Assembly: GCA_001791305.1 (NCBI GenBank)
Contig: MGEI01000005.1
Span: forward strand, 340,208-404,207
Direction: 5' to 3'
DNA: 64,000 bases
Origin: Candidatus Uhrbacteria bacterium RIFCSPLOWO2_01_FULL_47_17
GTDB lineage: Bacteria; Patescibacteriota; Patescibacteriia; UBA9934; GWF2-40-263
Position numbers and translations under genes: made by a program. Below are positions 4,777-64,000 of the stretch, one piece after another (position 1 is the first letter of the stretch; each line of letters opens with the position of its first letter). A model generated the notes under the pieces. The model searched no databases. It saw only the letters and a list, made by a program, of their open reading frames with translations, and had not been told where the DNA came from.

Positions 4777-5705
4777 GAGGCGGTCTCCTTTTTGCGTTCG
4801 TGACGCATGAGAGTTTGGATGTTGTTTTTCATCCGCGCCAAAAATCGATCCACGAAATCCGGCGGCGTCTCGTTTTCATGCCATGGGCATGAGACGCGTT
4901 GGATCTTTCGAAACGCGTATGAAATGAAGAGGCCGATGAGGCCAAGCGCCATCACATACGGAAAGGTCATGAATGCTCGTGGCGAACGATTGAGCTGCAT
5001 GAACCGGTGACCGATGCCATCGGAACCAACGATCCACTCCGTACCCATGAGAAACACGATGGCAGGAGAGATGGATTGGCGAACCGCTTCGATGATCTGC
5101 GGAATGATTTGTGGAAACACTACATACCACGTGACTTCCTGCTCAGACGCGCCGAGCGTTTTTGCCGTGAACACGTGTTCATCGGAAACGGATTTGGAAG
5201 CGAGGTAGACGTTTTTCGTGATCCCGACACAAATGCCAAACGCCATCACCCCCCAAAAGAGGGGATTCGACGTATGGAAAAGCGCGAGGAAGAAAATCAT
5301 CATGCCGTTTGCGGGAATGTGTTCCACAATCTCCATGATCGGCAAACACATTCTGCGCAGAAAATCGTAGAGACCCATATAGATCCCGACTGTGACGCAC
5401 AGCAGACTCGTTCCGCCGACGGCAATCAAGAGACGCGGTCCGGACACAAGAAAATCTTTCCAAAAAATGTAATCCCCTGATTGCGGATCAAGAAAGACGA
5501 GGAGTTTCAATCCCTCATAAAGACGATCGAACTTTGGCACGAGAGGAAATCTCGGCATGGGGGGAATGGTGTCTGTCTCGGCATAGGCGAGCGCTGTGTA
5601 GGCAAGAATCAGAAGCGCGATGCCGAGCACCGAGAAAAACATTCCAAGTTTTGGAGTCAAAGGCTTTCGTTGTGTAAAGATCAGCTTCAGTGTTTTTTGA
5701 AACAC
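4773..5705 (-). CDS. ABC transporter permease (TauC/SsuC-like, binding-protein-dependent inner membrane component)
   Basis: Multi-pass membrane protein with an EAA-like loop, overlapping the ATPase gene. The GTG start is preceded by GGAGGTGATAC. Confidence 0.8.
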   Translation of the reverse strand: MFQKTLKLIFTQRKPLTPKLGMFFSVLGIALLILAYTALAYAETDTIPPMPRFPLVPKFDRLYEGLKLLVFLDPQSGDYIFWKDFLVSGPRLLIAVGGTSLLCVTVGIYMGLYDFLRRMCLPIMEIVEHIPANGMMIFFLALFHTSNPLFWGVMAFGICVGITKNVYLASKSVSDEHVFTAKTLGASEQEVTWYVVFPQIIPQIIEAVRQSISPAIVFLMGTEWIVGSDGIGHRFMQLNRSPRAFMTFPYVMALGLIGLFISYAFRKIQRVSCPWHENETPPDFVDRFLARMKNNIQTLMRHERKKETAS

Positions 5706-7238: not shown

Positions 7239-8081
7239 CTAGTTGAGCACACCGGTTTCGGTCGTAGCAACGGGCTTGTCGACCGTTGCCTTGGCTGCGT
7301 CTTCTGCACGCCTGGCACCGAAGAGCATACCTTCGAGCTCGTTGTCTGAGGTGTGACTTTCCGCGAGGGCGATGAGTTCTGCTTCACGCATGTCGGCATT
7401 GGTGCCGGCGATTTCCGCGACAACTTCCGACTTTGCGACGAGCTGATTGACCGCGCCTTCGATGTTGGCTTGGAGTTCGCCTGTCTTGTCGGACTGCAGA
7501 CCAGCGATGATCGACTGAGCGCGAATGGCGCTCTGGGCCGCTGCAGCCTTTGCCGCAAGCGTACCGCGCTTTTCAACCGTCTCCTTCAGATCGCGTTGCA
7601 TCCCTTCCAGGCTGAACATGAGCTTCTTCTTTTCTGCTTCTCCACGCGTGATTTCTGCCTGCAGTTCATTGCAACGCTTTTGCCGACTCTCCAGAATGCC
7701 GCCAGCATCGCTGTAGGCCTTCATCAGGCGAGTGTATTCGATGTCGGCGGTGATTTCCGCTTCGGTCTTGCCGGCGGCGAGTTGCTTTTGACCGTACTGC
7801 ATGTACTCGATTTTCGCACCAGCGCGAAGTTTCGTCGCACGCTCCAGTTTGACATCTGCCTCAGCCTTGCTCGTCTCGCTCGTGGTCAGATTGGCTTTGA
7901 CGGTGGAGATTGCGTTGATCATTTCATCGACGCCCTTTTGCTTCGACTTGATGACTTCATCCATACCGGCCCGAACAACGTTCGGATCCGTGTACATCTT
8001 GTTGGTCGCGTTTTGAATCGCGCCAGCCGCCTGGTAATCTTTGACGCCGAGCCAACGCATGAGAGCTGAAAACCACTTCAT
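7239..8081 (-). CDS. Coiled-coil protein, PspA/IM30-like (uncertain family assignment)
   Basis: N-terminal amphipathic helix MKWFSALMRWLG followed by about 250 aa of coiled-coil with PspA-like periodicity. The start was chosen at M14 because it has RBS GGAGAAAG. Confidence 0.4.
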   Translation of the reverse strand: MKWFSALMRWLGVKDYQAAGAIQNATNKMYTDPNVVRAGMDEVIKSKQKGVDEMINAISTVKANLTTSETSKAEADVKLERATKLRAGAKIEYMQYGQKQLAAGKTEAEITADIEYTRLMKAYSDAGGILESRQKRCNELQAEITRGEAEKKKLMFSLEGMQRDLKETVEKRGTLAAKAAAAQSAIRAQSIIAGLQSDKTGELQANIEGAVNQLVAKSEVVAEIAGTNADMREAELIALAESHTSDNELEGMLFGARRAEDAAKATVDKPVATTETGVLN

Positions 8082-53605: not shown

Positions 53606-54715
53606 TTATTCAACTGCTTGTTCTACAGTTGCTGGTTCACTTTTGGTTTTAAGTGAAAGGCCAAGGCGGTGTTCTTTTGGTTCAATGGAAACAATCTTAA
53701 AGCTCATGACGTCTCCTGGTTTTGCAATTTGGGTTACGTCTGTTACAGGCTTGTCAGACAATTCAGAGACGTGGGCAAGACCATGGATTTCTGCATCCAA
53801 TTCCACAAACAATCCAAATGGATTTACTTTGAGCACGGTTCCTTCAACCATTTCTCCAATTCTGTATTTTTCCGCAACGCCTGCCCATGGGTCTTGAATG
53901 AGTTTCTTCATGGACAAGAAGATCTTGCTTCCTTCAATGCCAATAATTTCGGCTTTGACGGTTTGGCCGATCTTAAGTAAATCGCGTGGATGATCAATTC
54001 GTTGCCATGCGATCTCGGAAATGTGCACAAGACCCTCGAGTGAATCAAATTTTACGAACGCTCCGAAGTCGGCAACCGCCGTTACTTCTCCTTCAATCAC
54101 ATCACCAACACCAAACTTTGAGATGACATTCTTTTGTGTGTCTTCCCAAACTGTTTTTTCGGAAACAATCATTTTTTCTTCGCCTTCTGATACGTCAATG
54201 ACACGTACGTTCATTTTTGAACCAACGTAAGAGCGAAGTTTCTCGAGAATTTTATTTTTGTCTCCACCGCTTACGCGTGGGTAGTGTTCTGGAGAGAGTT
54301 GAGAAACAGGCAAGAATCCTGTGATGTTCTGAACCGCCACAATAAGACCACCTTTGTTTGCTTCCAAAATTTTGACGTCGAATGTTTCGCCTGTGGTGAA
54401 CAAACGGCGCAATTCTTCCCAAGCTTTCTTTTGACCCGCAAAGCGGAACGAAAGTTCCATTTCTCCGTTTTCGTTTTCAAGTTCAATCACGGTTGCTTCA
54501 ACGTCGCTTCCGGCCTTCATGTCTCCTACTTCTGTGCCGCCCGTGAAAAGCTCACGGCCACGCACAACTCCTGTGGCGATTCCGTTCAAGTCGATACGGA
54601 TTTCACGGCGTCCGGATCCAACGATTTTTCCGGTTACAACGTCGCCCACCTTTGGGATATTTAAATATTGTCCTTCCTCCATCAGTTTCTGAAATTCTGT
54701 TTGTGTGTCTTTCAT
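53606..54715 (-). CDS. rpsA: 30S ribosomal protein S1 (four S1 domains)
   Basis: Repeated S1/OB domains (GDVVTGKIVG..., GQTVKAEIIGIE..., GDVIEGEVTAV..., GDVMSFKIVSIE...). Confidence 0.7.
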   Translation of the reverse strand: MKDTQTEFQKLMEEGQYLNIPKVGDVVTGKIVGSGRREIRIDLNGIATGVVRGRELFTGGTEVGDMKAGSDVEATVIELENENGEMELSFRFAGQKKAWEELRRLFTTGETFDVKILEANKGGLIVAVQNITGFLPVSQLSPEHYPRVSGGDKNKILEKLRSYVGSKMNVRVIDVSEGEEKMIVSEKTVWEDTQKNVISKFGVGDVIEGEVTAVADFGAFVKFDSLEGLVHISEIAWQRIDHPRDLLKIGQTVKAEIIGIEGSKIFLSMKKLIQDPWAGVAEKYRIGEMVEGTVLKVNPFGLFVELDAEIHGLAHVSELSDKPVTDVTQIAKPGDVMSFKIVSIEPKEHRLGLSLKTKSEPATVEQAVE

Positions 54716-54865
54716 ACAAAAATATTCCGCCAGACGGTTCGCTCGAAAAAGCTCGAGAACGGTCCAACGGGGCTAGGATTAATAAGTGGTGAAAGCTTAA
54801 TAGATCTGGGGATTTTTGGCAAGGGCGATGATCGTACATAGAAAAAACTCGACCTTGTGGTCGAG

Positions 54866-55405
54866 CTAGAGAACAATCTTCATGATGAAAGCGAACACGG
54901 CGGTGTTCAGAATGAGAAGACCGATGGTTGAGTTGAGGGTGATTAAGGTGTTTTGTGCGCGCCATCCTGTGTTTTCCGGCGTTGGATCGTATGGGCCTGT
55001 AGCGAGGGTGATGATTGCCGCTACGGCAAGGCAAGACCATCCATCCCAGGAAATAGGTTCGAAGACGAGTGCGCCTTCTAAGTTTTCAAGGAAGCTATAG
55101 AGGAATATCGCCGAAAACATGAAGATAAGTCCGAGAAGAAAGACAAGCTCTGTAAAAAACACGCAAAAAATACAGCTCATGAATCGAACGTCTGTGCGCA
55201 CGAATCCAAGCGAGGCGAGTGTGGCGACGAATGCAGTGAGTTGGCCCGCATAGACGGCCGCTGCCGGTACGTTTTTTGACCCAAGCAGGATCAAGGCGAA
55301 GAGCGCGAACCCGAGAATGGACATGCCACAGCGAAAGGTCAGGTACCTCGTGATGGGCGAAAGATTCTTGTGCCAGTTGAGCACATTCGAAAGTGCATCG
55401 ACCAT
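54866..55405 (-). CDS. Membrane protein (179 aa), function unknown
   Basis: Five hydrophobic helices. Confidence 0.4.
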   Translation of the reverse strand: MVDALSNVLNWHKNLSPITRYLTFRCGMSILGFALFALILLGSKNVPAAAVYAGQLTAFVATLASLGFVRTDVRFMSCIFCVFFTELVFLLGLIFMFSAIFLYSFLENLEGALVFEPISWDGWSCLAVAAIITLATGPYDPTPENTGWRAQNTLITLNSTIGLLILNTAVFAFIMKIVL

Positions 55406-55419
55406 TCGTTCCTCCTCAA

Positions 55420-55644
55420 CTACCGCGCGGGCAGTCGTTCCTGAAGGGTTTGATTCAATCGGTTGATCGCTTCTGTTTGCGCTTGAACCGCAGCGGACAG
55501 TTTTTGTGTTTCGCCAAGTTTTTGGTTCATTTCCGTTCTCGTGTCATCGATCTTGCGTTCGAGGGAGTCGTTGGATGTATTGCACATCATCGAACAAAAT
55601 AGAAAGAAAACCATGAACCAAATGAGATCAATATCTTGCTTCAT
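55420..55644 (-). CDS. Small single-pass membrane protein (74 aa) with a coiled-coil tail
   Basis: Start MKQDIDLIWFMVFF preceded by AAAAGGAGGAAC. Confidence 0.35.
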   Translation of the reverse strand: MKQDIDLIWFMVFFLFCSMMCNTSNDSLERKIDDTRTEMNQKLGETQKLSAAVQAQTEAINRLNQTLQERLPAR

Positions 55645-55754
55645 CGAAGTTCCTCCTTTTTTCCGTCGGCCTGTTTTGTTGGTCGACACATGAGAATAGG
55701 CAGATTTCCACGAATTGTCAATATGACGGGGGTCTTGTACCATGAGGGGAGAAA

Positions 55755-55885
55755 ATTGGATTAATCTTAAGAAGTGAATGAGTGACTGAGTGAAAGAGTG
55801 TTGGACGGTGCGATTTATTTATTTCAAATAAATAAAAAGTTGTCTCTTTTCCTTCACTTTACCACTCCATCACTCAACCACTTTG
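55755..55885. repeat. GTGA-rich palindromic element (copy 4 of 4), upstream of the 55898 gene
   Basis: Left arm gaagtgaatgagtgactgagtgaaagagtg, central AT palindrome gatttatttatttcaaataaataaa, right arm ccttcactttaccactccatcactcaaccactttg. Confidence 0.55.
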
Positions 55886-55897
55886 CCGCCCTCTCCT

Positions 55898-56578
55898 ATG
55901 TCCCATCCACAAAAAGCTCTTCTTGATGAGTTTCAGTACGCCATTCATCATTTCGTCCCAACGCTTCCAGATGAAATCAAAGTTGAGGCACAGAAGGTGC
56001 ACGATGATTTGCTCGCCGACAAAACTGTTGACGAGGCGATTATTCGTCGTACGTTTCATGATGTTGGGGTGAAAGAGTATCCGTATCGCCATGCATATGA
56101 CGAACTCATCCATACAAAGGAAGAAGGGAAGATGAATCAGTTAGTTCTCGAACATGTGGATGATGCGGTTCGCAAAGTGATCGAACCACATTTGAATGCT
56201 GGAGTGCACCTCGACGAACTTGTGCGCAGCGATTTGCTTACGGAATCTCTGACGCCAGAACAAATCTATCAAGTGGTTGATGGAATTGCGGTTGCAAAGT
56301 CGAAATTGGGTGAAGCAATCAAGTCGCATGTAAGTGCAGATACGGCTGCGTATGATGCTTTGCTTCAAAAATGGAATGATCACGTCAAAATGATTGAAGG
56401 CAAACTCGCAGAACTTCTTGAACTTGCAAAACAAGGCGATGAAGGACAAGCGTCTGAAATTAAAGGCAAAGTGCAAATGTACAAAGAAGGATTTTTGGTC
56501 ACAGAACCAGATCCAGATGTAAAAGAAATCGACGAAGAAATTGCCTACTGGAAAGAAGCGTTTGCCGAGGAAGCTTAG
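55898..56578 (+). CDS. Hypothetical acidic helical protein (about 226 aa)
   Basis: ORF starting MSHPQKALLDEFQY. Confidence 0.45.
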   Translation: MSHPQKALLDEFQYAIHHFVPTLPDEIKVEAQKVHDDLLADKTVDEAIIRRTFHDVGVKEYPYRHAYDELIHTKEEGKMNQLVLEHVDDAVRKVIEPHLNAGVHLDELVRSDLLTESLTPEQIYQVVDGIAVAKSKLGEAIKSHVSADTAAYDALLQKWNDHVKMIEGKLAELLELAKQGDEGQASEIKGKVQMYKEGFLVTEPDPDVKEIDEEIAYWKEAFAEEA

Positions 56579-56604
56579 GATGAATGTGCTATAATCTCCC
56601 ACGT

Positions 56605-57255
56605 ATGCAAATTATCTGGAACGGACTTTCGTGTTTTGAGATCATTACGAATACTTCAGAAGGGGAGGTCACACTTGTTGTGGATCCTTATGATAATGCA
56701 ACTGGACTGCGTTTTCCTCGTACGCTTGAGGCGAACGTTGTTTTGGTTTCGCATGATGAAGAGGACGCAAATAATCTCGCGGCCATTGCAGGAACACCAC
56801 AAGTCATTGATATGCCTGGCGAGTTTGAGGTGCGACAAGTGTTCATGTATGGCGTGGATGCTCCGCTTAAGCGCGAAGTAAAAGGGGTGCATGTGGCAAA
56901 CAATTTGTTTCGCATTGAGTGCGAGGGAATGCATATTGCGCATTTGGGATCCCTCGACCGCGCGCTTTCTGATAAAGAACTCCAAGAACTTGAGAACATC
57001 GACATCTTAATGGTACCTGTTGGAGGTGGACGCGTGCTTACACCAAAACTTGCCGCAGAAGTCATTGCACAAATTGAACCACGCGTTGTTATTCCAATGA
57101 CATATGAGCTTCCGAACCTGAAAGAATCTCTGCAGCCATTAAGTGCGTTTATGAAAGAAATGGCCGGTGCAAAGAAAGAAGAAATGAACAAGTATAAAGT
57201 GGCACGCAAAGATTTGCCGGAAGAAGATTTGTTGATCGTTACCCTCTCGAAGTAA
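56605..57255 (+). CDS. MBL-fold metallo-hydrolase family protein with a degenerate metal-binding motif
   Basis: MQIIWNGLSCFEI...TLVVDPY...VVLVSHDEEDANN parallels the MBL HxHxDH region but reads SHDEED. Confidence 0.55.
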   Translation: MQIIWNGLSCFEIITNTSEGEVTLVVDPYDNATGLRFPRTLEANVVLVSHDEEDANNLAAIAGTPQVIDMPGEFEVRQVFMYGVDAPLKREVKGVHVANNLFRIECEGMHIAHLGSLDRALSDKELQELENIDILMVPVGGGRVLTPKLAAEVIAQIEPRVVIPMTYELPNLKESLQPLSAFMKEMAGAKKEEMNKYKVARKDLPEEDLLIVTLSK

Positions 57256-57265
57256 ACCTTCGACT

Positions 57266-57619
57266 ATGCCACGTACCAAACCTCGTTCTCTTCGACCCAT
57301 GACGAAAGAGCAGAAGCTTTGGCTCGTGCTCACCATCCTTTTGTTTGTGGTGTTTATGGCGGTCGGTTGGTATTTCACGGTTGCGCAAGCACTAAAGCGA
57401 TCCATTCAGGATTCCAAGCAGACAATCTCTCTTGAACTTGGCGAGACGAAACAACAAGTGATTGGAGATGAAGATGTTGGAAAGAAAACACAAGAAACAA
57501 TTGATAAAATGAAGGACTTTTTTGGAAACATCAAACAGTATTTAGAAAATAAACAACAAGCCGAACAAGCGATTTTAGAAAATGTGAAAGAGGAATTGAA
57601 ACAATCTTCCACGCAATGA
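57266..57619 (+). CDS. Small membrane-anchored coiled-coil protein (117 aa)
   Basis: N-terminal transmembrane helix [20 protein letters not shown]. Confidence 0.45.
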
Positions 57620-57620
57620 T

Positions 57621-60125
57621 ATGGCACAAAAAAAACAACATTCTGAACCGGAAGAACCCGTTCAAGATATCACGACAAATGGGATTGGACGCATTGAGCG
57701 CCGAAACATTGCCGATGAAATGCAAACCGCATATCTCGACTACGCCATGTCCGTCATTGTTGGTCGTGCGCTTCCGGATATTCGCGATGGACTGAAACCA
57801 GTTCACCGCCGCATTTTGTATTCCATGTGGCAGACGGGACTCCGATCAAGTGCAAAGTTCAAAAAGTGTGCGTCTGTGGTTGGAGATGTACTCGGAAAGT
57901 ATCACCCACACGGAGATTCCGCTGTGTATGACTCGCTCGTGCGTATGGCGCAAGATTTTTCGATGCGCTATCCACTGATCCGCGGACAAGGGAACTTTGG
58001 ATCTCTCGATGGCGACCCGGCTGCGGCGTATCGATATACAGAAGCAAAGCTTGAAACCATTTCGGAAGAATTGCTTGTTGATATCGAGAAGGAGACGGTC
58101 GACTTCATTCCAAACTTTGATGGCACACACAAAGAACCAAAAGTGTTGCCTGCAAAACTTCCAAACTTGCTCATCAACGGAACAGTTGGAATCGCGGTTG
58201 GAATGGCGTCGAATATCCCTCCGCACAACCTCGGAGAAGTTTGTGATGCGGTACTCGCATTGATTCGCGACAAGGATACATCGATCGAGGATCTGTCAGA
58301 GATCGTTAAGGGTCCAGATTTTCCAACGGGTGGAATTGCGTACAGTAATGCGGACATCAAAACCGCCCTCGCAACCGGTCGTGGGGGGGTGGTCGTTCGA
58401 GGCAAAACGGATATTGTGGAAGATAAGAAAGGCAATTTCGCCATTATCATCACAGAAATTCCGTACCAAGTGAACAAAGCAAACTTGCTTATTCGCATTG
58501 CACAGAATGTTCGCGATAAGAAGATCGAAGGGATTAAAGATTTGCGCGACGAATCAACATCCGCCGGTGTTCGTGTTGTTGTTGAGTTAAAAAAAGATGC
58601 GTATCCAAAGAAAGTGTTGAATCGTTTGTATCAAACAACACAACTTCAGGAATCCACACACTACAACATGCTCGCACTTGTGGAGGGTGGAATTTTGCCG
58701 CGCGTACTCAACCTCAAGATGATTCTTGAGGAGTATCTCAAACATCGCCAAGAAGTGGTGAAGCGCCGCACACAGTTTGAACTTACGCGCGCGCTTGATC
58801 GTGCACATATCCTCGAAGGATTGCGCATTGCGCTCGCGCAGATCGACAAGATTATTGCGTGTATCAAGAAATCAAAAGACAAAGAAGAAGCGCGATTGAA
58901 CTTGATCAAACAATTTAAACTTTCCGAGAGACAAGCGGTCGCGATTCTCGACATGCGTTTGCAACAGCTTGCGAACCTAGAGACGTTGCGCATCGAACAA
59001 GAATATGCGGAAAAGATGGCGCTCATCAAAGAGCTTGAGTCTATTCTTGCAAGCGCAAAAAAGATGATGATGGTGATTGCGGAAGAAGTGGAAGGATTGA
59101 AACTCAAGTACGCGTCCCCTCGAAGAACTCAAATCATCAAGTCGGGAATTAAAGAATTCTCGATCGAAGACGTCGTTCCAGACACGGAAACGGTCGTAAT
59201 GATCACAAAAGCCGGATACATCAAGCGCATCGACCCAGACACATTCCGCACACAAAAGCGTGGAGGGAAGGGGGTCGTCGGCATGGCGTCCAAAGATGAG
59301 GATGAGGTCGAGCAAGTATTCTCGACAACCACACACAAAGATCTTCTGTTCTTCACGAGTAGAGGTCGTGTGTTCCAACTTAAAGCTTACGATGTTCCAG
59401 AGGCGTCGCGCATTGCGAAAGGCCAAGCGCTCGTAAACTTCCTCCAACTCGCGCCAGGTGAATCGGTATCCGCGTCGTTGTCGATGGACGAGCTCGCGGA
59501 CTCGAAATATCTTCTCATGGTGACAAACAAGGGAACGATCAAGAAAACAGATTTGTCCGAGTATGATTCCGTTCGCAAGTCGGGGTTGATCTCGATCAAA
59601 CTCCGAGACGGCGACAACCTCCAATGGGTTCGTCCAACGTCCGGAAAAGATCAGATCATGCTCGTGACATCCGGTGGACAAGCGGTTCGCTTCGAAGAAA
59701 AAGGCGTGCGCCCAATGGGTCGTGTCGCCTCTGGTGTTCGAGGAATCAAGCTCAAGGGTGATGATTCTGTGGTTGGAATGGGAATCATTCCAGGCTCCTC
59801 ATCGAAGAAACCGGGAGAGAAAGAGATTTTGGTTGTGATGGAAAACGGATACGGAAAACGCTCGGACCTTATCGAGTATAAGGTCCAAGGACGTGGCGGA
59901 TCCGGAATTAAAACCGCAAATATCAGCAAAAAGACAGGAAAAATCGTCGCGGCGCATATCGTCGATACGAAAGACGAGCGTGATATGTTCATTATTTCCG
60001 GCGCGGGTCAGGTGATCCGATCTGAACTGAAGTCCGTCTCTGTCCTCGGTCGCGCAACCCAAGGAGTTCGCATTATGCGATTCAAGAAGCCAGATGACAC
60101 GGTCGCGAGTGCTGCCCTCATTTAG
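57621..60125 (+). CDS. gyrA: DNA gyrase subunit A
   Basis: [26 protein letters not shown], active-site Tyr region [10 protein letters not shown], and C-terminal beta-pinwheel repeats; 834 aa. Confidence 0.95.
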
Positions 60126-60163
60126 CCAAAAAGACTGTGGTTTTTGCCACAGTCTTTTGATTT
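60123..60163 (+). repeat. 41-bp direct repeat, left copy (includes the gyrA stop and a perfect terminator hairpin)
   Basis: tagccaaaaagactgtggtttttgccacagtcttttgattt, identical to 63349-63389. Confidence 0.8.
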
Positions 60164-60177
60164 TTCTAACAAATCAT

Positions 60178-60206
60178 TGACATTTTTGGGATTTTATGTT
60201 ATTATC
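60178..60206 (+). promoter_or_regulatory. Sigma70-like promoter for the DGR target gene (TTGACA, 17 nt, TATTAT)
   Basis: ttgacatttttgggattttatgttattat. Confidence 0.4.
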
Positions 60207-60333
60207 TTCCGTCATTTGAATTTCGCACAAGGTGATTTTCGGTGACATGCAGTGTCTACTTTTTGTTCGCTCCGAGCCTCGCGACGGAATTTCCGTCACA
60301 ACCGCTTGATCGGAACAAAATGCGGAGGAAGAT

Positions 60334-60993
60334 ATGGCAAAGCAGTCTTGGAGAATCAAGCTCGAGCAATGGCTCGCGGCAAATGGTGATGAAGGCATGT
60401 CCGGAGTAGTGGATCATCTTGCGATTTTGACTCGCGCGACGAGTCTTGTTCGTAAGCCCGGATTCAAAAAAGCTCTGGAGAAATTTTTGGACGAATGGGC
60501 CGGTCTTCCCGAACAAAAGGCCGATCCGATCCTCCGTCGCCTCTTTGAAGACGAAACGATCACCATCGCTCCGTGCGACGGTTCCCGGTACGTCGCCAAA
60601 GAAAAAGGCGTGTTCAAAGCGTACATCGAAGGTCTCTTCGCAAGTTGGGGTCTCGACAAGCCTGGACAGTCCACGGTTGCCGCGAATGTCTCCGTCTACG
60701 AGATGATCCGGGACGCGACCTTCGCTCAGATGTTCGGCTCTCTCGGGCCAGATCTCGACAAACTGTGTCTCTCACAGCATCAGATCGTCGAGTTCTGCGA
60801 AACGCATTCGGCACGTCTTCGGCAAGAAGGCTACGCCACATTCTTTCTTTTTAAGGAAGGCGATCAGTTCTACGTTGCGGGCGTGCGTGTCCACGCGGGC
60901 GGCCTGAGCGTGTACGTCCGCCGTCTCGAGCGCGACGATGTCTGGTATGGCGAGTTTCGTCATCGTCTCGTAGTCCCGCAACTGACCGTTTGA
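60334..60993 (+). CDS. DGR variable (target) protein with the C-terminal VR; no signal peptide
   Basis: The C-terminal 38 codons are matched by the TR with adenine-specific differences. Residues at the variable positions are G, R, H, G, S, Y, R, R, D, Y, F. Confidence 0.8.
   Translation: MAKQSWRIKLEQWLAANGDEGMSGVVDHLAILTRATSLVRKPGFKKALEKFLDEWAGLPEQKADPILRRLFEDETITIAPCDGSRYVAKEKGVFKAYIEGLFASWGLDKPGQSTVAANVSVYEMIRDATFAQMFGSLGPDLDKLCLSQHQIVEFCETHSARLRQEGYATFFLFKEGDQFYVAGVRVHAGGLSVYVRRLERDDVWYGEFRHRLVVPQLTV
60865..60978 (+). repeat. DGR variable repeat (VR), 114 nt
   Basis: Aligned with the TR at 61294-61407 there are 16 mismatches, and every one falls at a TR adenine. Confidence 0.85.
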
Positions 60994-61057
60994 AACTTAT
61001 TCGGATGACACTTTGTTTCTTTGTCCCTTTGACTCTTTTGAGTCCGGGGGATTTTTT

Positions 61058-61066
61058 TGTATAATG
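61058..61066 (+). promoter_or_regulatory. Extended -10 promoter element (TGTATAAT) positioned to transcribe the TR-containing RNA
   Basis: tgtataatg lies 25 nt downstream of the target-gene terminator hairpin gactcttttgagtc and about 230 nt upstream of the TR. Confidence 0.35.
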
Positions 61067-61293
61067 CATTTGCAATCGTGCGATATCTTGTGGCCAAGGC
61101 TACAAGGTCACGATTGTTTGGAATCGTTGTTGAGAATTTTGTTGGCTACGGCTTGCAAAAGAGTGATAATGATTCTGACAAACAAAAACTTTTCAGTTGG
61201 TGCGGTGCGCTTGTGGACTTCTTCGTCCCAAATAAAATTCAGCCGAATTTCTCGTGCACGATAAATCGGCAGTGATCTGGATGGCCCATCGTA

Positions 61294-61407
61294 CAATTCT
61301 ACGTTGCGAACGTGAATGTCAACGCGGACGGCCTGAACGTGAACGTCAACCGTCTCGAGAACGACAATGTCTGGAATGGCGAGTATCGTCATCGTCTCGT
61401 AGTCCCG
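61294..61407 (+). repeat. DGR template repeat (TR), 114 nt, in the same orientation as the VR
   Basis: The adenine-rich template consists of AAC/AAT codons at the variable positions. Confidence 0.85.
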
Positions 61408-61419
61408 AAAATGAAATGT

Positions 61420-61446
61420 TCTCCTCCCTATTGTTTGGGAGGAGTT
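61420..61446. terminator. Bidirectional terminator hairpin between the TR and the convergent avd gene
   Basis: ctcctccctattgtttgggaggag, followed by ttttcttttc on the + strand. The avd stop codon lies in its loop. Confidence 0.45.
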
Positions 61447-61769
61447 TTCTTTTCAATATCTTTTTTCCATCCGCCAAGCATTCTTCCAATTTCATCTAAA
61501 TCAACGGAAAGCGCAGTATATTTATCATTCGGCAGGCATTTGTTTTCCCACGCAATTTGTAAAAAGAATTTCACTCCGTCCAGTTTTGAAATACAGATGG
61601 TGAGTCGATTCATTTTTTGCTCACCGGAAAGATATTGCGAAACAAAAATTTGCTCAAGCATTTCGAGAAAGTATCCCTCAATCTTTCCACCAAGATTATG
61701 ACGCGATGTTTTTGGAAAATCTGTAAGCAATTTAAACCAATTTGTATAGGCACTCCTCGTTTTTGTCAT
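61428..61769 (-). CDS. avd: Avd-like accessory variability determinant (four-helix-bundle / 23S rRNA-IVS protein family), encoded on the strand opposite to the TR and RT
   Basis: FPKTSRHNLGGKIEGYFLEMLEQ and LDEIGRMLGGW match the Avd/IVS four-helix-bundle family consensus; 113 aa. Confidence 0.7.
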   Translation of the reverse strand: MTKTRSAYTNWFKLLTDFPKTSRHNLGGKIEGYFLEMLEQIFVSQYLSGEQKMNRLTICISKLDGVKFFLQIAWENKCLPNDKYTALSVDLDEIGRMLGGWKKDIEKKTPPKQ

Positions 61770-61824
61770 GACCGAAGGAGTTCGGGGGGGGGGTGAGAAT
61801 ATTAGACATATTCATTGAGCGTTT

Positions 61825-62829
61825 ATGAAAAAATTTAACCGCCGTTACGATGATATTATAACACTCGATAATTTACTTCGTGCATGGGAACAGTTTTTAT
61901 CGGGGAAGAAAAATCGTACGGATGTTGTGGAATTTCAAAATCATCTCATGGATAATATTTGTGATCTACAGCGATCACTCGAAGATAAAACGTATGTGCA
62001 TGGTGCATATCACGCATTTAATATTTCCGATCCAAAACCAAGGAGTATTCATAAGGCAACCGTCCGCGATCGGTTGCTTCACCATCTGATACATTCAGAG
62101 TTGTATGAATACTTCGATCAGAAATTTATTTACGATTCTTATTCGTGCCGAATGGAGAAGGGGACGCATAAGGCTATGAATCGATTCAGAGACTTTGGCA
62201 GAATTGTTTCAAAAAATAATACACGCACCTGTTGGGTATTGAAATGCGATATTCGAAAGTTCTTTGCAAATATCGATCACACAATCTTGAAAGATATTTT
62301 GGCAAAGCATATTGAGGATCGTGATGTGTTGAATCTTCTCGGTAACATCATCGATAGTTTTTCGACGCTCGGAAGAAAAGAGGTTGGTCTCCCGCTTGGA
62401 AATCTCACTTCGCAACTTCTCGTAAACATCTACATGAACGAGTTTGATCAGTTTATGAAGCGAACGGTCAAAGCGGAATATTACATTCGGTATGCAGATG
62501 ATTTTGTGATTTTGCATGAGGATGAGGAATATCTAAAACAGCTCATTCCAAAGATTTCAAATTTCCTCCAGGATCAGCTGGGACTTTGTTTGCACCCGGA
62601 TAAGTTGTTTCTGAAGACGCTTGTGTCCGGCGTTGATTTTCTAGGATGGGTACACTTTCCGCATCATCGGACGTTACGTACGGCCACAAAACGACGGATG
62701 TTCATACGGATTCAGGATCACTCGACACAAGAAACAATTCAATCGTATTTGGGGCTTATGAGACATGGGAATACCCATCAGCTTCAAAAGAATCCTTTAT
62801 TTCTTGACGTAAAGATCAAAGATCGATAA
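61825..62829 (+). CDS. DGR reverse transcriptase
   Basis: RT motifs include the DGR-diagnostic motif 4 (LPLGNLTSQLLVNIYM) and the YADDF catalytic box. Confidence 0.9.
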   Translation: MKKFNRRYDDIITLDNLLRAWEQFLSGKKNRTDVVEFQNHLMDNICDLQRSLEDKTYVHGAYHAFNISDPKPRSIHKATVRDRLLHHLIHSELYEYFDQKFIYDSYSCRMEKGTHKAMNRFRDFGRIVSKNNTRTCWVLKCDIRKFFANIDHTILKDILAKHIEDRDVLNLLGNIIDSFSTLGRKEVGLPLGNLTSQLLVNIYMNEFDQFMKRTVKAEYYIRYADDFVILHEDEEYLKQLIPKISNFLQDQLGLCLHPDKLFLKTLVSGVDFLGWVHFPHHRTLRTATKRRMFIRIQDHSTQETIQSYLGLMRHGNTHQLQKNPLFLDVKIKDR

Positions 62830-62862
62830 AGTAGAAAAGTAAGAATGTAAGAAATAACTCCT

Positions 62863-63105
62863 ATGATCAATATTGTAAAAACGACGAGCAAAGGACAAGT
62901 CACATTGCCCATGCACTGGCGTAAAAAATTTCACACAAATCGCTATACAATGAAAGAGGTTAATGACACGCTTGTTATTTCTCCACTTGAGGTTGAGTCG
63001 CTCGAAGAAGAGAATTGGACAACAATTTTTGATGCGAAACGTGACAATGAAGGGAAGGGAATCCCGATCGATCAGCTTATTGATACATTGAAGCGCACAC
63101 TCTAG
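62863..63105 (+). CDS. AbrB/MazE/SpoVT-type antitoxin
   Basis: Swapped-hairpin motif TTSKGQVTLPMHWRKKF; 80 aa. Confidence 0.55.
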   Translation: MINIVKTTSKGQVTLPMHWRKKFHTNRYTMKEVNDTLVISPLEVESLEEENWTTIFDAKRDNEGKGIPIDQLIDTLKRTL

Positions 63106-63111
63106 CTTTCT

Positions 63112-63351
63112 ATGGATAAAATCGAAAAGCTTTTACGTAAAGCAAAGAAAGCAGATCGTGAGCGGTTATTGGCAGTATTGGAGGCTGTTCGAGAGGGGAA
63201 ACTCGAGGGATTGCACGTAAAACGACTGACAAATTCCGCTTTTTATCGGGTTCGTGTTGGAGATTTCAGGATTATTTTCTCAATCGATCACGCAAATAAA
63301 CGTATTTTGATCGAATCTGTCTCATCTCGAGACGAGAATACATACAAATAG
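63112..63351 (+). CDS. RelE/ParE-family toxin
   Basis: AFYRVRVGDFRIIFSIDHANKRILIESVSSRDE is a typical RelE/ParE C-terminal core; 79 aa; 6 nt after the antitoxin. Confidence 0.6.
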   Translation: MDKIEKLLRKAKKADRERLLAVLEAVREGKLEGLHVKRLTNSAFYRVRVGDFRIIFSIDHANKRILIESVSSRDENTYK

Positions 63352-63389
63352 CCAAAAAGACTGTGGTTTTTGCCACAGTCTTTTGATTT
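63349..63389 (+). repeat. 41-bp direct repeat, right copy (includes the toxin stop and terminator hairpin)
   Basis: tagccaaaaagactgtggtttttgccacagtcttttgattt. Confidence 0.8.
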
Positions 63390-63446
63390 CTTGACGCGAG
63401 GGCTGAAAAATGATAGTATTTGTGTATTAAATTCTGTTTATTTCCT

Positions 63447-63668
63447 ATGCCAGTACCAGCCCGTAAGAAATCCAATCCGTCCGGCAAACGCCGACGTTCC
63501 CATGACCATCTTACAAAGAAAGTCATTCCAGCCTGCCCACAGTGTGCCGCTCCTATAAAACCACATAACGCCTGCCTCACATGCGGTTTTTATGCTGGTC
63601 GTCAAGTTATTACGGTTGGAAAAGCCATTGCGAAAGCGGTAAAAAAAGTAGCAAAAAAGAAAGCTTAA
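63447..63668 (+). CDS. rpmF: 50S ribosomal protein L32
   Basis: MPVPARKKSNPSGKRRRSHDHL plus a CxxC...CxxC zinc ribbon. A TTGACG/TGATAGTAT promoter lies upstream. Confidence 0.85.
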   Translation: MPVPARKKSNPSGKRRRSHDHLTKKVIPACPQCAAPIKPHNACLTCGFYAGRQVITVGKAIAKAVKKVAKKKA

Positions 63669-63743
63669 TGCTTTCTTTTTTTTAAACGACCCCACCCAAC
63701 CTCCCCTTCATAAAGGGGAGGGGCTATAAATTCCGTTCTTTTT

Positions 63744-64000
63744 TATGTCGAACCGTCACCTTTCACGAACCATCGCTATGCAATCCCTGTATCAATGGGA
63801 TTTTCTTGGAATGGAGGATGAAAAAATTGAAGAGATCATTGCGTTTAATCGCCAAGAGTTTGCGCCGAAGTTTGATGATCAGAAATTCGTGGAGGATTTA
63901 GTCCATGGCGTCATGGAGAAACGTGATGTCATTGATGAATTCATCACACGCTTCGCCCCAGACTGGCCACTCGAGTCGCTCACACTCATCGATCGAAATA
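63744..64000 (+). CDS. nusB: Transcription antitermination factor NusB, 5' part (truncated by the window end)
   Basis: MSNRHLSRTIAMQSLYQWDF... matches the NusB N-terminal helix pattern. Confidence 0.65.

What the first reader, a model, noticed from the sequence alone, without database searches (positions are those of the whole stretch)
60334..62829. Complete diversity-generating retroelement with adenine-specific TR/VR mismatches
A 114-nt repeat pair is present. The VR (60865-60978) forms the 3' end of ORF 60334-60993, and the TR (61294-61407) lies 300 nt downstream. There are 16 mismatches and every one is at a TR adenine. The codon changes are aac>ggc, aat>cgt, aac>cac, gac>ggc, aac>agc, aac>tac, aac>cgc twice, aat>gat, aat>tat, tat>ttt, plus one upstream a>g. 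This is the signature of DGR mutagenic homing. The adjacent RT carries motif 4 LGNLTSQ and YADD, and an Avd-like four-helix-bundle gene is present. The target protein has no signal peptide and its variable residues sit in the last 38 codons, so it is probably a cytoplasmic ligand-binding protein (C-type-lectin-like fold presumed).
Basis: seen in the sequence. Interest (0 to 1): 0.8.

Follow-up and report, generated by a model that had tools for sequence, protein, structure and literature searches.

The report
Active CPR-type diversity-generating retroelement
This is a working diversity-generating retroelement in an uncultivated Candidatus Uhrbacteria (CPR) bacterium that rewrites the last ~35 codons of a small binding-type protein; the element type is already known, but its template RNA carries a large conserved folded domain on the unexpected (5') side and its enzyme genes sit beside a slippage-prone run of G's, neither of which I found described in the papers I could search.

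Summary
VR 60865-60978 and TR 61294-61407 differ at 16 positions, and all 16 are TR adenines (P about 2e-12). The RT's best solved relative is a 328-aa reverse transcriptase that I take to be Bordetella bRT (E 4e-40). It carries LGNLTSQ and YADD. Avd matches Pfam bAvd but lies on the minus strand.

The element is active. Near-identical contigs from other samples carry three VR alleles. These differ only at TR-adenine positions, and the TR never changes.

It belongs to the published CPR "TR-(avd)-RT" (B3) class. About 44 genome loci and at least 118 metagenome contigs share the layout.

Two features are new in this analysis:
- A ~225-nt RNA domain lies between a conserved TATAAT and the TR. It has strong covariation (46 of 56 pairs compensated). 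Its 12-bp helix P3 ends where TR-VR homology begins.
- Nothing structured lies between the post-TR hairpin and the RT. This suggests a DGR RNA permuted relative to Bordetella.
- A conserved G8-12 tract of variable length sits between avd and RT.

Overall this is a known kind of element, with mechanistically interesting variants.

The parts
60177..60205 (+). Sigma-70-like promoter of the target gene (TTGACA-17-TATTAT, with TG)
   Evidence: The consensus scan gives 11 of 12 matches. This is a prediction only.
60334..60993 (+). DGR target gene (219 aa). It has a variable helical N-terminus (about residues 1-60) and a conserved domain (residues 63-219) that ends in the VR.
   Evidence: ORF. No Pfam or NCBIfam family matches. 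There are 151 homologues, all hypothetical CPR proteins.
60865..60978 (+). Variable repeat (VR). Positions seen to vary between alleles are 60872-60962. Position 60867 also differs from the TR but is the same in all three alleles. The VR covers codons 178-215.
60979..60987 (+). IMH-like 3' boundary. The VR reads CAACTGACC where the TR reads AAAATGAAA. It is never overwritten and is fixed in all alleles.
   Evidence: Its function is inferred by analogy with Bordetella IMH/IMH*.
61024..61058 (+). Putative terminator of the target gene (TCCC..GACTC-TTTT-GAGTC..GGGGGA followed by T7). It is conserved in related loci as ggGGGATTTTTTTT.
   Evidence: Read from the sequence and from the spacer alignment. 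The terminator scan did not flag it.
61038..61065 (+). Promoter of the TR RNA. The TATAAT (61060-61065) lies at a fixed distance 5' of helix P1 in all 34 aligned units and is found 220-290 nt upstream of the TR in 41 of 44 loci.
61072..61294 (+). Structured 5' domain of the DGR RNA. Helices: P1 61072-80/61109-17; P1b 61085-95/61098-108; P2 61125-31/61165-71; P2a 61137-44/61153-60; P3 61200-11/61283-94; P3a 61215-18/61225-28; P3b 61242-49/61263-70. An invariant AGTTGG lies at 61195-61200.
   Evidence: RNAalifold. Pair counts: 93.3% of cells paired against 42-44% in slid controls, and 46 of 56 pairs show compensatory change. The single-sequence MFE gives the same fold, z = -4.5. No conserved ORF is present.
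61294..61414 (+). Template repeat (TR). It is invariant in all population contigs and contains 9 AAY codons plus 8 single-A codons, allowing about 3e15 protein variants with no stop codon reachable.
61421..61454 (+). Conserved 8-bp hairpin (CTCCTCCC/GGGAGGAG) followed by TTTTCTTTTC. It is an intrinsic-terminator-like 3' end of the TR RNA and a candidate Avd-binding stem-loop. The avd stop codon lies at the loop/stem junction on the other strand.
   Evidence: Terminator scan. All 34 homologous units fold into an 8-11 bp stem with covarying inner pairs.
61428..61769 (-). avd accessory gene (113 aa), convergent with the TR RNA and divergent from the RT
   Evidence: Pfam bAvd 1.3e-13, above the gathering score. 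NCBIfam DivGenRetAVD gives 61 bits, below its cutoff of 80.
61772..61793 (+). Small hairpin CCGAA-GGAG-TTCGG running into a G10 homopolymer (61784-61793), in the 55-bp avd/RT divergent intergenic region
   Evidence: The tract is conserved (G8-12 in 50 of 72 distinct related regions) and varies in length.
61825..62829 (+). DGR reverse transcriptase (334 aa), with LGNLTSQ at 62395-62415 and YADD at 62491-62502
   Evidence: Pfam RVT_1 9e-24. Best PDB match 8ub7, E 3.8e-40, aligned over the full length.

Best explanation
This is a complete and currently active diversity-generating retroelement of the CPR-specific 'TR-(avd)-RT' (B3) architecture, in a Candidatus Uhrbacteria genome.

Proposed mechanism:
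1. A ~380-nt non-coding RNA is transcribed from its own TATAAT promoter (61060). It consists of a ~225-nt folded 5' domain, the 121-nt TR, and a hairpin with a U-tract.
2. The RT, with Avd, copies the TR into cDNA and misincorporates opposite template adenines.
3. Copying starts at or just 5' of the invariant CCG at the TR 3' end. It stops where the 12-bp helix P3 abuts the TR 5' end.
4. The cDNA replaces VR codons 178-215 of the target gene. This diversifies 17 codons (about 3e15 variants) on a beta-hairpin and loop of a very divergent C-type-lectin-like domain in a protein with no signal peptide or membrane segment.

Shown here: the A-specific TR/VR pattern; the DGR-type RT and Avd; VR alleles that differ only at TR-A sites in otherwise identical genomes; the conserved RNA structure; and the coincidence of the P3 end with the homology boundary.

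Inferred: that the 5' domain is the functional counterpart of the Bordetella 'Sp' RNA (RT binding, priming geometry, stop duplex) moved to the other side of the TR; that the 3' hairpin binds Avd and/or terminates transcription; the priming nucleotide, which is unknown; and the ligand and cellular role of the target.
For: - All 16 mismatches (18 over the longer pair) are at TR adenines, P about 1e-12.
- Three VR alleles occur on backgrounds 99.5-99.8% identical to the window. Every difference is at a TR-A position and the TR is invariant.
- The RT's best solved relative is the 328-aa RT of 8ub7, which I take to be Bordetella bRT, at E 3.8e-40. Motif 4 and YADD align.
- Avd matches Pfam bAvd above the gathering score.
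- The same layout, target(+) - about 310 nt - TR(+) - avd(-) - RT(+), with A-biased TR/VR mismatches, is found in about 44 genome loci. It is also found in the great majority of the first 118 metagenome contigs that carry the RNA motif.
- The 5' RNA domain has 56 pairs. 93.3% of cells are paired against 42-44% in slid controls, 46 pairs have compensatory changes, and 0 of 500 shuffles reach the observed values. The MFE z-score is -4.5.
- The left edge of TR-VR homology lies within -5 to +5 nt of the 3' end of P3 in 34 of 34 loci.
- No consensus structure at all is found from the post-TR hairpin to the RT start in the same loci.
Against: - There are no expression or cDNA data. The transcript ends, the priming site and the roles of P1-P3 are all inferences.
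- I found no covariation that links the invariant AGTTGG, or any other 5' element, to the TR 3' end. A BPP-1-like primer:template duplex is therefore not demonstrated (and by inspection).
- NCBIfam DivGenRetAVD scores below its cutoff.
- The VR alleles come from assembled consensus contigs, not from reads.
Confidence: 0.9

Rival explanations
1. The 5' structured RNA is not part of the reverse-transcription machinery. It could instead be a regulatory leader (a riboswitch-like element or an RNA-stability element) that controls TR-RNA levels, or a separate small RNA that happens to lie between the target gene and the TR.
For: - No pairing or covariation was found between the 5' domain and the TR 3' end.
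- The Rfam motif RT-9, of unknown function, weakly matches the P1b-P2 part at the same relative place in two loci, at 23 and 34 bits against a gathering score of 46.
- In Bordetella all essential elements except a 20-nt upstream segment lie 3' of the TR (bioRxiv 10.1101/2023.10.23.563531).
Against: - The domain is contiguous with the TR. A TATAAT sits at a fixed distance 5' of P1, and no terminator lies between the domain and the TR.
- The 3' strand of P3 ends exactly at the TR boundary in 34 of 34 loci.
- The domain travels with the avd/RT cassette across two target families.
- No room or structure for an Sp-like RNA exists downstream of the TR.
Confidence: 0.3
2. The VR-bearing domain of the target is not a C-type-lectin fold. 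It would then be a different alpha/beta scaffold that only superficially resembles CLec.
For: - Foldseek against the PDB gives no hit with E <= 0.001.
- A profile search against PDB sequences finds nothing relevant.
- Wu et al. left the CPR 'UVR' classes unassigned.
Against: - The order of secondary-structure elements (beta, three short helices, then four strands) and the C-terminal placement of the variable residues match known DGR variable proteins.
- Roux et al. predicted new C-Lec variants in CPR.
Confidence: 0.2
3. The element is an inactive relic, and the TR/VR differences are old or arose by ordinary mutation.
For: One allele (P0001) is found unchanged in at least 24 contigs from many samples. 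Turnover is therefore not rapid enough to scramble every sample.
Against: - Three alleles differ at 16-17 sites that are exclusively TR-A positions.
- Several kilobases of flanking DNA are identical between these contigs.
- The RT, avd and TR are all intact.
Confidence: 0.03
4. The RT belongs to another class (retron, group II intron or defence RT), and the repeat pair is coincidental.
For: NCBIfam gives sub-threshold hits to group II intron, Drt3a and retron models. These models share the RT core.
Against: - All of those hits are far below their cutoffs.
- The DGR-type RT of 8ub7 is the best solved relative by 20 orders of magnitude.
- An adjacent Avd is present, and the TR/VR mismatches are A-specific.
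Confidence: 0.01

Closest known systems
CPR (Patescibacteria) DGRs: architecture B3 'TR-(avd)-RT' of Wu et al. 2018 (PMC5758913); DGR clade 2 of Roux et al. 2021 (PMC8144416); first surveyed by Paul et al. 2017
   Same: - The gene order and orientations are the same.
- The host is a CPR bacterium from groundwater.
- The target is small, with no recognisable domain, signal peptide or membrane segment.
- The VR is C-terminal and the mutation bias is at adenines.
- The near-identical MAG (GCA_001791455, Rifle aquifer) comes from the data sets those surveys used.
   Different: Nothing about the element itself differs. In the papers I could read, three things are not described:
- the ~225-nt covarying RNA domain 5' of the TR;
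- the coincidence of helix P3 with the TR boundary;
- the poly-G tract between avd and the RT.
The fold of these VR classes was also left open ('UVR1-6').
Bordetella phage BPP-1 DGR (Mtd / Avd / TR / Sp / bRT)
   Same: - The RT is homologous over its full length (E 3.8e-40) with the same motif 4.
- Avd is present.
- The TR/VR pair shows A-specific changes.
- The 3' boundary sequence differs between VR and TR, like IMH/IMH*.
- A stem-loop lies just 3' of the TR, like the Avd-binding stem-loop Sp3-33.
- A duplex involves the nucleotides immediately 5' of the TR, like the avd:Sp 'cPRT stop' duplex.
   Different: [quoted passage not shown] - The partner strand of the TR-proximal duplex, and all large RNA elements, lie 5' of the TR.
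- There is no Rfam RT-10 match.
- The target is not a phage tail fibre.
C-type-lectin-fold DGR variable proteins (Mtd, TvpA 2y3c, archaeal AvpA, TaqVP)
   Different: - There is no detectable sequence similarity.
- The variable residues alternate with conserved hydrophobic residues along a beta-hairpin (xVxVx...VxVxR).
- The domain is only about 155 residues long.
Rfam RT-9 (RF03080) and RT-10 motifs of Weinberg et al. 2017 (PMC5737381)
   Same: These are RNA motifs found next to RT genes. RT-10 is the Bordetella Sp region. RT-9 weakly matches P1b-P2 at the same relative position in the window and in L173.
   Different: The scores (23 and 34 bits) are below the RT-9 gathering score of 46. No related locus passed the gathering threshold. 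RT-9 covers at most about 90 nt of the ~225-nt domain.
Homopolymer or SSR phase-variable promoters (Neisseria porA/opc poly-G/C spacers; Haemophilus hifA/hifB divergent promoters). This comparison is from my own knowledge.
   Same: A G8-12 tract, or (GA)12 in one locus, lies in a short divergent promoter region. Its length differs between otherwise identical elements.
   Different: No promoter mapping or expression data exist. No -35 element was identified. The tract also lies 12-16 nt upstream of the avd start codon, next to a small hairpin. Its function is unknown.

Membership tests
Diversity-generating retroelement (DGR) | The reverse transcriptase belongs to the DGR clade, with the motif-4 (I/L/V)GxxxSQ signature and YxDD | tested here: met
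   LGNLTSQ at aa 191-197 and YADD at aa 223-226. Best PDB match is the 328-aa RT of 8ub7 at E 3.8e-40 over residues 4-319; the next RT classes score about 1e-20. That 8ub7 is Bordetella bRT rests on its length, on its motif alignment and on my own knowledge; the PDB code is not in the preprint text.
Diversity-generating retroelement (DGR) | A TR/VR near-repeat whose mismatches correspond to adenines in the TR | tested here: met
   16 of 16 mismatches (18 of 18 over 121 nt) are at TR adenines; P = 2.4e-12.
Diversity-generating retroelement (DGR) | The VR lies inside a protein-coding target gene, typically at its 3' end, with AAY codons in the TR | tested here: met
   The VR covers codons 178-215 of a 219-codon ORF. 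The TR has 9 AAY codons, and no stop codon can be reached by A substitution.
Diversity-generating retroelement (DGR) | An Avd accessory protein (in most DGRs) | tested here: met
   Pfam bAvd PF22296 gives 51.8 bits against a gathering score of 40. The NCBIfam equivalog model scores below its cutoff, 61 against 80.
Diversity-generating retroelement (DGR) | Ongoing mutagenic homing: VR variation between genomes restricted to TR-A sites, with an invariant TR | tested here: met
   Three VR alleles occur on near-identical backgrounds. All of the 16-17 differences are at TR-A positions, and the TR is identical in all contigs. These are assembled contigs, not reads.
Diversity-generating retroelement (DGR) | IMH/IMH* directionality element at the 3' end of VR and TR, and a hairpin downstream of the VR | tested here: inconclusive
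   VR CCG-CAACTG against TR CCG-AAAATG/AAACT is a conserved difference in 22 of 34 loci. A conserved hairpin with a T-run lies about 40 nt downstream of the VR. Function cannot be tested in silico.
Bordetella-type DGR RNA (TR followed by Sp: Avd-binding stem-loop, primer A56, stop-duplex strand, thumb ring, bRT-binding stem-loop) | [quoted passage not shown] | tested here: not met
   Only one hairpin follows the TR. RNAalifold finds 0 consensus pairs from that hairpin to the RT start in 32 loci. The covarying structure lies 5' of the TR. There is no RT-10 hit.
CPR DGR architecture B3, TR-(avd)-RT (Wu et al. 2018) | The order is TR, then avd on the reverse strand, then RT, with the target upstream | tested here: met
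   ORF map. The same order is seen in about 44 genome loci and in metagenome contigs. The definition is quoted.
C-type-lectin-fold DGR variable proteins | The VR is embedded in a CLec-fold domain | tested here: inconclusive
Rfam RT-9 RNA (RF03080) | A score at or above the gathering threshold of 46.1 bits | tested here: not met
   23.3 bits in the window and 34 bits in L173. None of 15 related loci reached the gathering threshold.

The most novel reading that the evidence does not exclude
In the large CPR 'TR-(avd)-RT' class, the DGR RNA is organised differently from the Bordetella paradigm. It is a self-contained ~380-nt non-coding RNA whose protein-binding, stop-duplex and possibly priming elements lie 5' of the template. 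Helix P3 sets the end of cDNA synthesis. Only an Avd-binding/terminator hairpin lies 3' of the template. This would imply a different priming geometry.

In addition, expression of the RT and/or Avd may be switched stochastically by a slippage-prone G8-12 tract in their divergent promoter region. Hypermutation itself would then be phase-variable.
Probability: 0.4. Interest if true: 0.7.

Novelty: new member of a known kind. Interest (0 to 1): 0.5.

Why it matters
The element itself adds little. CPR DGRs of this architecture have been catalogued since 2017, and a near-identical MAG is public. Comparing this locus with its relatives does yield three things:

1. **Natural evidence of activity.** Three VR alleles sit on an otherwise identical genome.
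2. **An answer on the fold.** These CPR targets have been left as 'unknown VR classes'. The confident model points to a minimal, very divergent C-type-lectin fold, as Roux et al. predicted.
3. **Testable mechanistic differences from the only DGR understood in molecular detail.** The structured RNA lies on the 5' side of the template, and one of its helices marks the cDNA stop. A conserved hypermutable G-tract sits next to the RT and avd genes.

If these differences hold up, they would show how DGR ribonucleoproteins can be rearranged. That matters for engineering DGRs as targeted mutagenesis tools. They would also give a first handle on how DGR activity is switched on and off in nature.

Tried and rejected
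- **Other VRs in the window.** An A-tolerant scan of both strands found none.
- **Sequence families for the target.** Pfam, NCBIfam and an A2-profile search against PDB sequences gave nothing.
- **Rfam.** No family reaches its gathering score in the window region or in 15 related loci. Only weak RT-9 hits appear.
- **A small protein encoded in the 5' RNA domain.** Open frames differ in strand and frame between loci, and some loci have none of 45 aa or more. Rejected.
- **The poly-C tract as an in-ORF switch that extends Avd at the N-terminus.** Upstream ATGs are absent or in random frames, and tract lengths show no 3-nt periodicity. Rejected.
- **A primer:template duplex between the invariant AGTTGG and the TR 3' end (CAACT).** It fits 12 of 34 TRs well, but not the window's AAAAT, and shows no covariation (and inspection). 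Unresolved.
- **An empty insertion site (gyrA followed directly by rpmF).** I searched by exact look-up of the L32 protein. All 24 contigs read carry the DGR.
- **Literature.** The supplement of Wu et al. is not held and Paul et al. 2017 is not held. I could not confirm whether this exact locus is listed. The PDB code 8ub7 is not mentioned in the Handa et al. preprint text.
Full report
**1. The observation**

The repeat finder reports a 121-nt direct repeat at 60865-60985 and 61294-61414, 85% identical. Every mismatch is at an adenine of the downstream copy. Over the 121 nt the changes are A>G 9, A>C 6 and A>T 3.

The TR has 28 A in 114 nt. The chance that 16 mismatches all fall on A is 2.4e-12. 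The upstream copy is the 3' end of ORF 60334-60993. No further copy of the TR exists in the window, even when A positions are ignored.

**2. The genes**

- ORF 61825-62829 matches Pfam RVT_1 (9e-24).
- Its best solved relative is a 328-aa reverse transcriptase, 8ub7, with nine entries. I take this to be Bordetella bRT, from its length, its motifs and my own knowledge. The match has E 3.8e-40 and covers residues 4-319. In it, GIPIGSLTSQ aligns with GLPLGNLTSQ. Group II intron and retron-type RTs follow at about 1e-20.
- LGNLTSQ lies at aa 191-197 and YADD at aa 223-226.
- ORF 61428-61769 is Avd. Pfam bAvd gives 51.8 bits against a gathering score of 40. NCBIfam DivGenRetAVD gives 61 bits, below its cutoff of 80.
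- Avd is on the minus strand. It is convergent with the TR and divergent from the RT.
- The target protein has no Pfam or NCBIfam family.

**3. Organism and activity**

The target's closest homologue (95% identical) is a hypothetical protein of Candidatus Uhrbacteria bacterium RIFCSPHIGHO2_02_FULL_47_44. All 151 homologues are hypothetical proteins of CPR/Patescibacteria.

Contigs carrying that homologue are 99.5-99.8% identical to window 54334-64000.
- Against one of them, the only 17 differences in 7.6 kb lie in 60872-60962, and all are at TR-A positions.
- The TR is identical in all eight contigs.
- A look-up through the neighbouring L32 protein is unbiased with respect to the VR. It found a third allele, L088, with 16 differences from the window over 5.5 kb. 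All 16 are in the VR at TR-A positions.

These alleles are direct evidence of mutagenic homing. The caveat is that they are assembly consensus sequences.

The two A>C differences at 60979 and 60982 never vary. They encode the family-wide PQL motif. I interpret them as the IMH/IMH* boundary.

**4. Family and architecture**

A scan of 185,579 species genomes with the target profile returned 79 loci.
- About 44 share the order target(+) - ~310 nt - TR(+) - avd(-) - RT(+).
- Their TR/VR pairs are 109-130 nt long, with 9-32 mismatches, overwhelmingly at TR adenines.
- About 34 other loci have a target homologue with no RT within 5 kb.

This layout is the 'B3, TR-(avd)-RT' architecture of Wu et al. 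It accounts for 90% of their CPR set. Their CPR VR classes 'UVR1-6' were left without a fold assignment (PMC5758913).

Roux et al. place CPR DGRs in clade 2. They note that the targets lack recognisable domains or membrane segments, and they predict new C-Lec variants there (PMC8144416).

The element is therefore a member of a known kind.

**5. The target protein**

The family alignment shows a conserved scaffold, FFVAxVxVxSDGLxVxVxRFExDxVWxAExRxRLVVPQLT. The x positions are the TR AAY codons. The TR encodes 9 AAY codons and 8 single-A codons. This gives about 3e15 variants with no reachable stop codon.

No signal peptide or hydrophobic segment is present. The maximum 19-residue hydropathy is 1.0.

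Structure predictions and searches:
- The full-length AlphaFold model has pLDDT above 90 for residues 70-219 and a poorly defined helical N-terminus.
- The model of residues 63-219 has pLDDT 95.9 and pTM 0.92.
- Foldseek and sequence-profile searches are negative.

I conclude that a very divergent, minimal CLec-like fold is the best reading, at about 0.75. It is not proven.

The variable residues sit on the hairpin at 178-197 and on the following loop and strand up to residue 210.

**6. The RNA**

Aligning the VR-TR spacers of the related loci showed unexpectedly strong conservation. The elements, in order, are:
- a G-rich hairpin plus T-run after the target stop codon;
- a TATAAT at a fixed position (found in 41 of 44 loci; the promoter scan places it at 61038-65);
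- about 225 nt of conserved sequence;
- the TR;
- a hairpin with a U-tract.

The units measure 375-438 nt from the TATAAT to the U-tract, most of them about 380-400 nt.

RNAalifold on 34 non-identical units predicts eight helices in the 5' domain. Counting pairs gives the following:

| Measure | Observed | Control |
|---|---|---|
| Cells paired | 93.3% | 42-44% when partners are slid |
| Pairs with compensatory change | 46 of 56 | n/a |
| Covariation score | 0.615 | 0.12-0.15 when partners are slid |
| Shuffles reaching observed values | 0 of 500 | n/a |

The window sequence alone folds into the same structure, with z = -4.5. There is no conserved reading frame in the domain.

Helix P3 is the strongest. 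It has 12 bp, at 61200-11 paired with 61283-94, and 96% of its cells are paired. Its 3' strand ends where the TR begins. In all 34 loci the left edge of TR-VR homology lies within -5 to +5 nt of the P3 end, and in 30 of 34 it lies at 0 to +5.

The hairpin after the TR (61421-44, followed by TTTTCTTTTC) is called a terminator by the scan. It forms an 8-11 bp stem with covarying inner pairs in all 34 units. Its 3' arm and loop overlap the avd C-terminal codons and stop codon on the other strand.

As a control, the region from that hairpin to the RT start gives no consensus structure at all in the same loci. This region is antisense avd plus the intergenic spacer.

**7. Comparison with Bordetella**

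In BPP-1 the RNA elements needed for cis-primed reverse transcription lie in the ~140-nt Sp region 3' of the TR. They are the Avd-binding stem-loop (Sp3-33), the primer A56, the Sp59-70 strand of the 'cPRT stop' duplex, the thumb ring and the bRT-binding stem-loop. The Sp59-70 strand pairs with the 20 nt just 5' of the TR (bioRxiv 10.1101/2023.10.23.563531).

That study's survey of other DGRs, CPR included, examined only 40 nt upstream and 100 nt downstream of the TR.

In the CPR family studied here:
- The post-TR hairpin is a good candidate for the Avd-binding stem-loop.
- The nucleotides just 5' of the TR are also in a duplex (P3), but their partner lies upstream.
- All other structure lies upstream.
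- No structured RNA lies downstream of the hairpin.

The simplest reading is a permuted DGR RNA. I could not identify the primer. The invariant AGTTGG (61195-61200), immediately 5' of P3, is complementary to the CAACT found at the 3' end of 12 of 34 TRs. It is not complementary to the window's AAAAT, and no covariation supports the pairing.

**8. Spread of the RNA**

A pattern from the P3/P3a region matches once per DGR locus among the loci already fetched. Wherever flank sequence is available, avd(-) lies at +232..+572 and the RT from about +610.

About 20 of these contigs carry a second, distantly related target family, with the motif ...NNGYANLFYV...VxVxWxADDRxWxV...RWxAGxRAFS. The geometry is the same, and the VR again differs from the TR almost only at TR adenines.

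Rfam has no family for this RNA. The RT-9 motif is one of the RT-associated motifs of unknown function from Weinberg et al. (PMC5737381). It gives sub-threshold hits on P1b-P2 at the same relative position in the window (23 bits) and in L173 (34 bits; gathering score 46). It may be a fragment of a related RNA.

**9. The G-tract**

The 55-bp avd/RT intergenic region contains a small hairpin (CCGAA-GGAG-TTCGG) that runs into G10 at 61784-61793.
- Among 72 distinct homologous intergenic regions, 50 have a G-run of 8-12, with a mode of 10.
- One region has (GA)12 at the same place.
- Seven sets of otherwise identical flanks differ only in tract length. Examples are G8/G11/G12 in L017/L188/L131, G10/G14 in L119/L189, and G10 in the window against G11 in L001.
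- The tract is not inside the avd ORF.
- On the RT-sense strand it is followed directly by a TAnnnT-like hexamer in about half of the cases.

A phase-variable promoter or 5'-UTR switch for the RT and/or avd is a reasonable hypothesis. I put it at about 0.3-0.4. It is untested. I found no paper linking DGRs to homopolymer phase variation in the held library.

**10. Verdict**

The element is an active member of a known CPR DGR class, so as a DGR it is not novel.

The added value lies in three things: the fold assignment for the target, the covariation-supported 5' RNA domain with its stop-helix coincidence, and the conserved hypermutable G-tract. These are testable variations on the Bordetella mechanism.

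Noticed in passing
window 60123-60163 and 63349-63389: A perfect 41-nt direct repeat brackets the DGR plus a toxin-antitoxin pair, between gyrA and rpmF. The repeat consists of a stop codon TAG followed by the terminator hairpin AAAAGACTGTGGTTTTTGCCACAGTCTTTT. In the related Uhrbacteria locus L009, a 26-nt perfect repeat of the same terminator brackets the DGR alone (4807-4832 and 7482-7507). This suggests the cassette was inserted at, or carries a copy of, the gyrA terminator. No empty site was found among the 24 contigs read (10 places shown).
   Followed up: partly
window 62863-63105 and 63112-63351: A small type II toxin-antitoxin pair lies between the RT and the right-hand repeat. The antitoxin is MazE/AbrB-like (22.7 bits, just below the gathering score). 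The toxin is ParE/RelE-like (25 bits, above the gathering score). The pair is absent from the orthologous position in L009.
   Followed up: partly
window 61784-61793 (and homologous positions in L009-L215): A conserved G8-12 homopolymer, preceded by a small covarying hairpin, lies in the divergent avd/RT intergenic region. One locus has (GA)12 at this place instead. The length differs between otherwise identical elements. It is a candidate phase-variation switch for DGR activity, and I did not find it in the searched literature.
   Followed up: partly
window 61428-63351 versus 60334-60993: There is a strong G+C contrast inside the island. The target gene has 55% G+C. avd has 36.5%, the RT 39.7% and the TA pair 40.5%. 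The window as a whole has 50%. This is compatible with the enzyme module coming from a lower-GC CPR donor.
   Followed up: no
window 61957-62139 (RT N-terminal region), in L002, L005 and L006: Some population contigs carry 20-24 clustered substitutions in about 180 nt of the RT. Only 5 of them change amino acids. The rest of the locus is identical. This looks like a recombination patch from a diverged RT allele. Several assemblies also break inside the RT or near the VR/TR.
   Followed up: partly
window 61108-61392, minus strand: Public gene calls annotate a 94-aa ORF here. It is antisense to the TR and to part of the structured RNA domain. It is almost certainly spurious, since the AAC-rich TR leaves the antisense frame open.
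   Followed up: partly
L098, L117, L118, L130, L138, L160, L171, L172, L184, L192, L204 and others (metagenome contigs): A second target family of about 200-235 aa is served by the same RNA/avd/RT cassette. Its C-terminus reads NNGYANLFYV...VxVxWxADDRxWxV...RWxAGxRAFS. It is only marginally similar to the window's family (HMM E about 1e-5) and probably has the same fold. L151 carries a tandem duplication of the whole VR domain in one ORF.
   Followed up: partly
L010, L012, L014, L019, L022, L027, L028, L033, L037 and others; L051 at 3348-3387: About 34 genome loci encode a homologue of the target with no avd or RT within 5 kb. L051 and L021 keep the RNA motif but lack an RT. These may be remote targets, decayed DGRs or non-diversified paralogues.
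   Followed up: no
window 61083-61171; L173 233-344: Sub-threshold matches to Rfam RT-9 (RF03080), at 23 and 34 bits against a gathering score of 46. They fall on the P1b-P2 part of the 5' RNA domain, at the same relative position in both loci. RT-9 may be a partial model of a related DGR RNA.
   Followed up: partly
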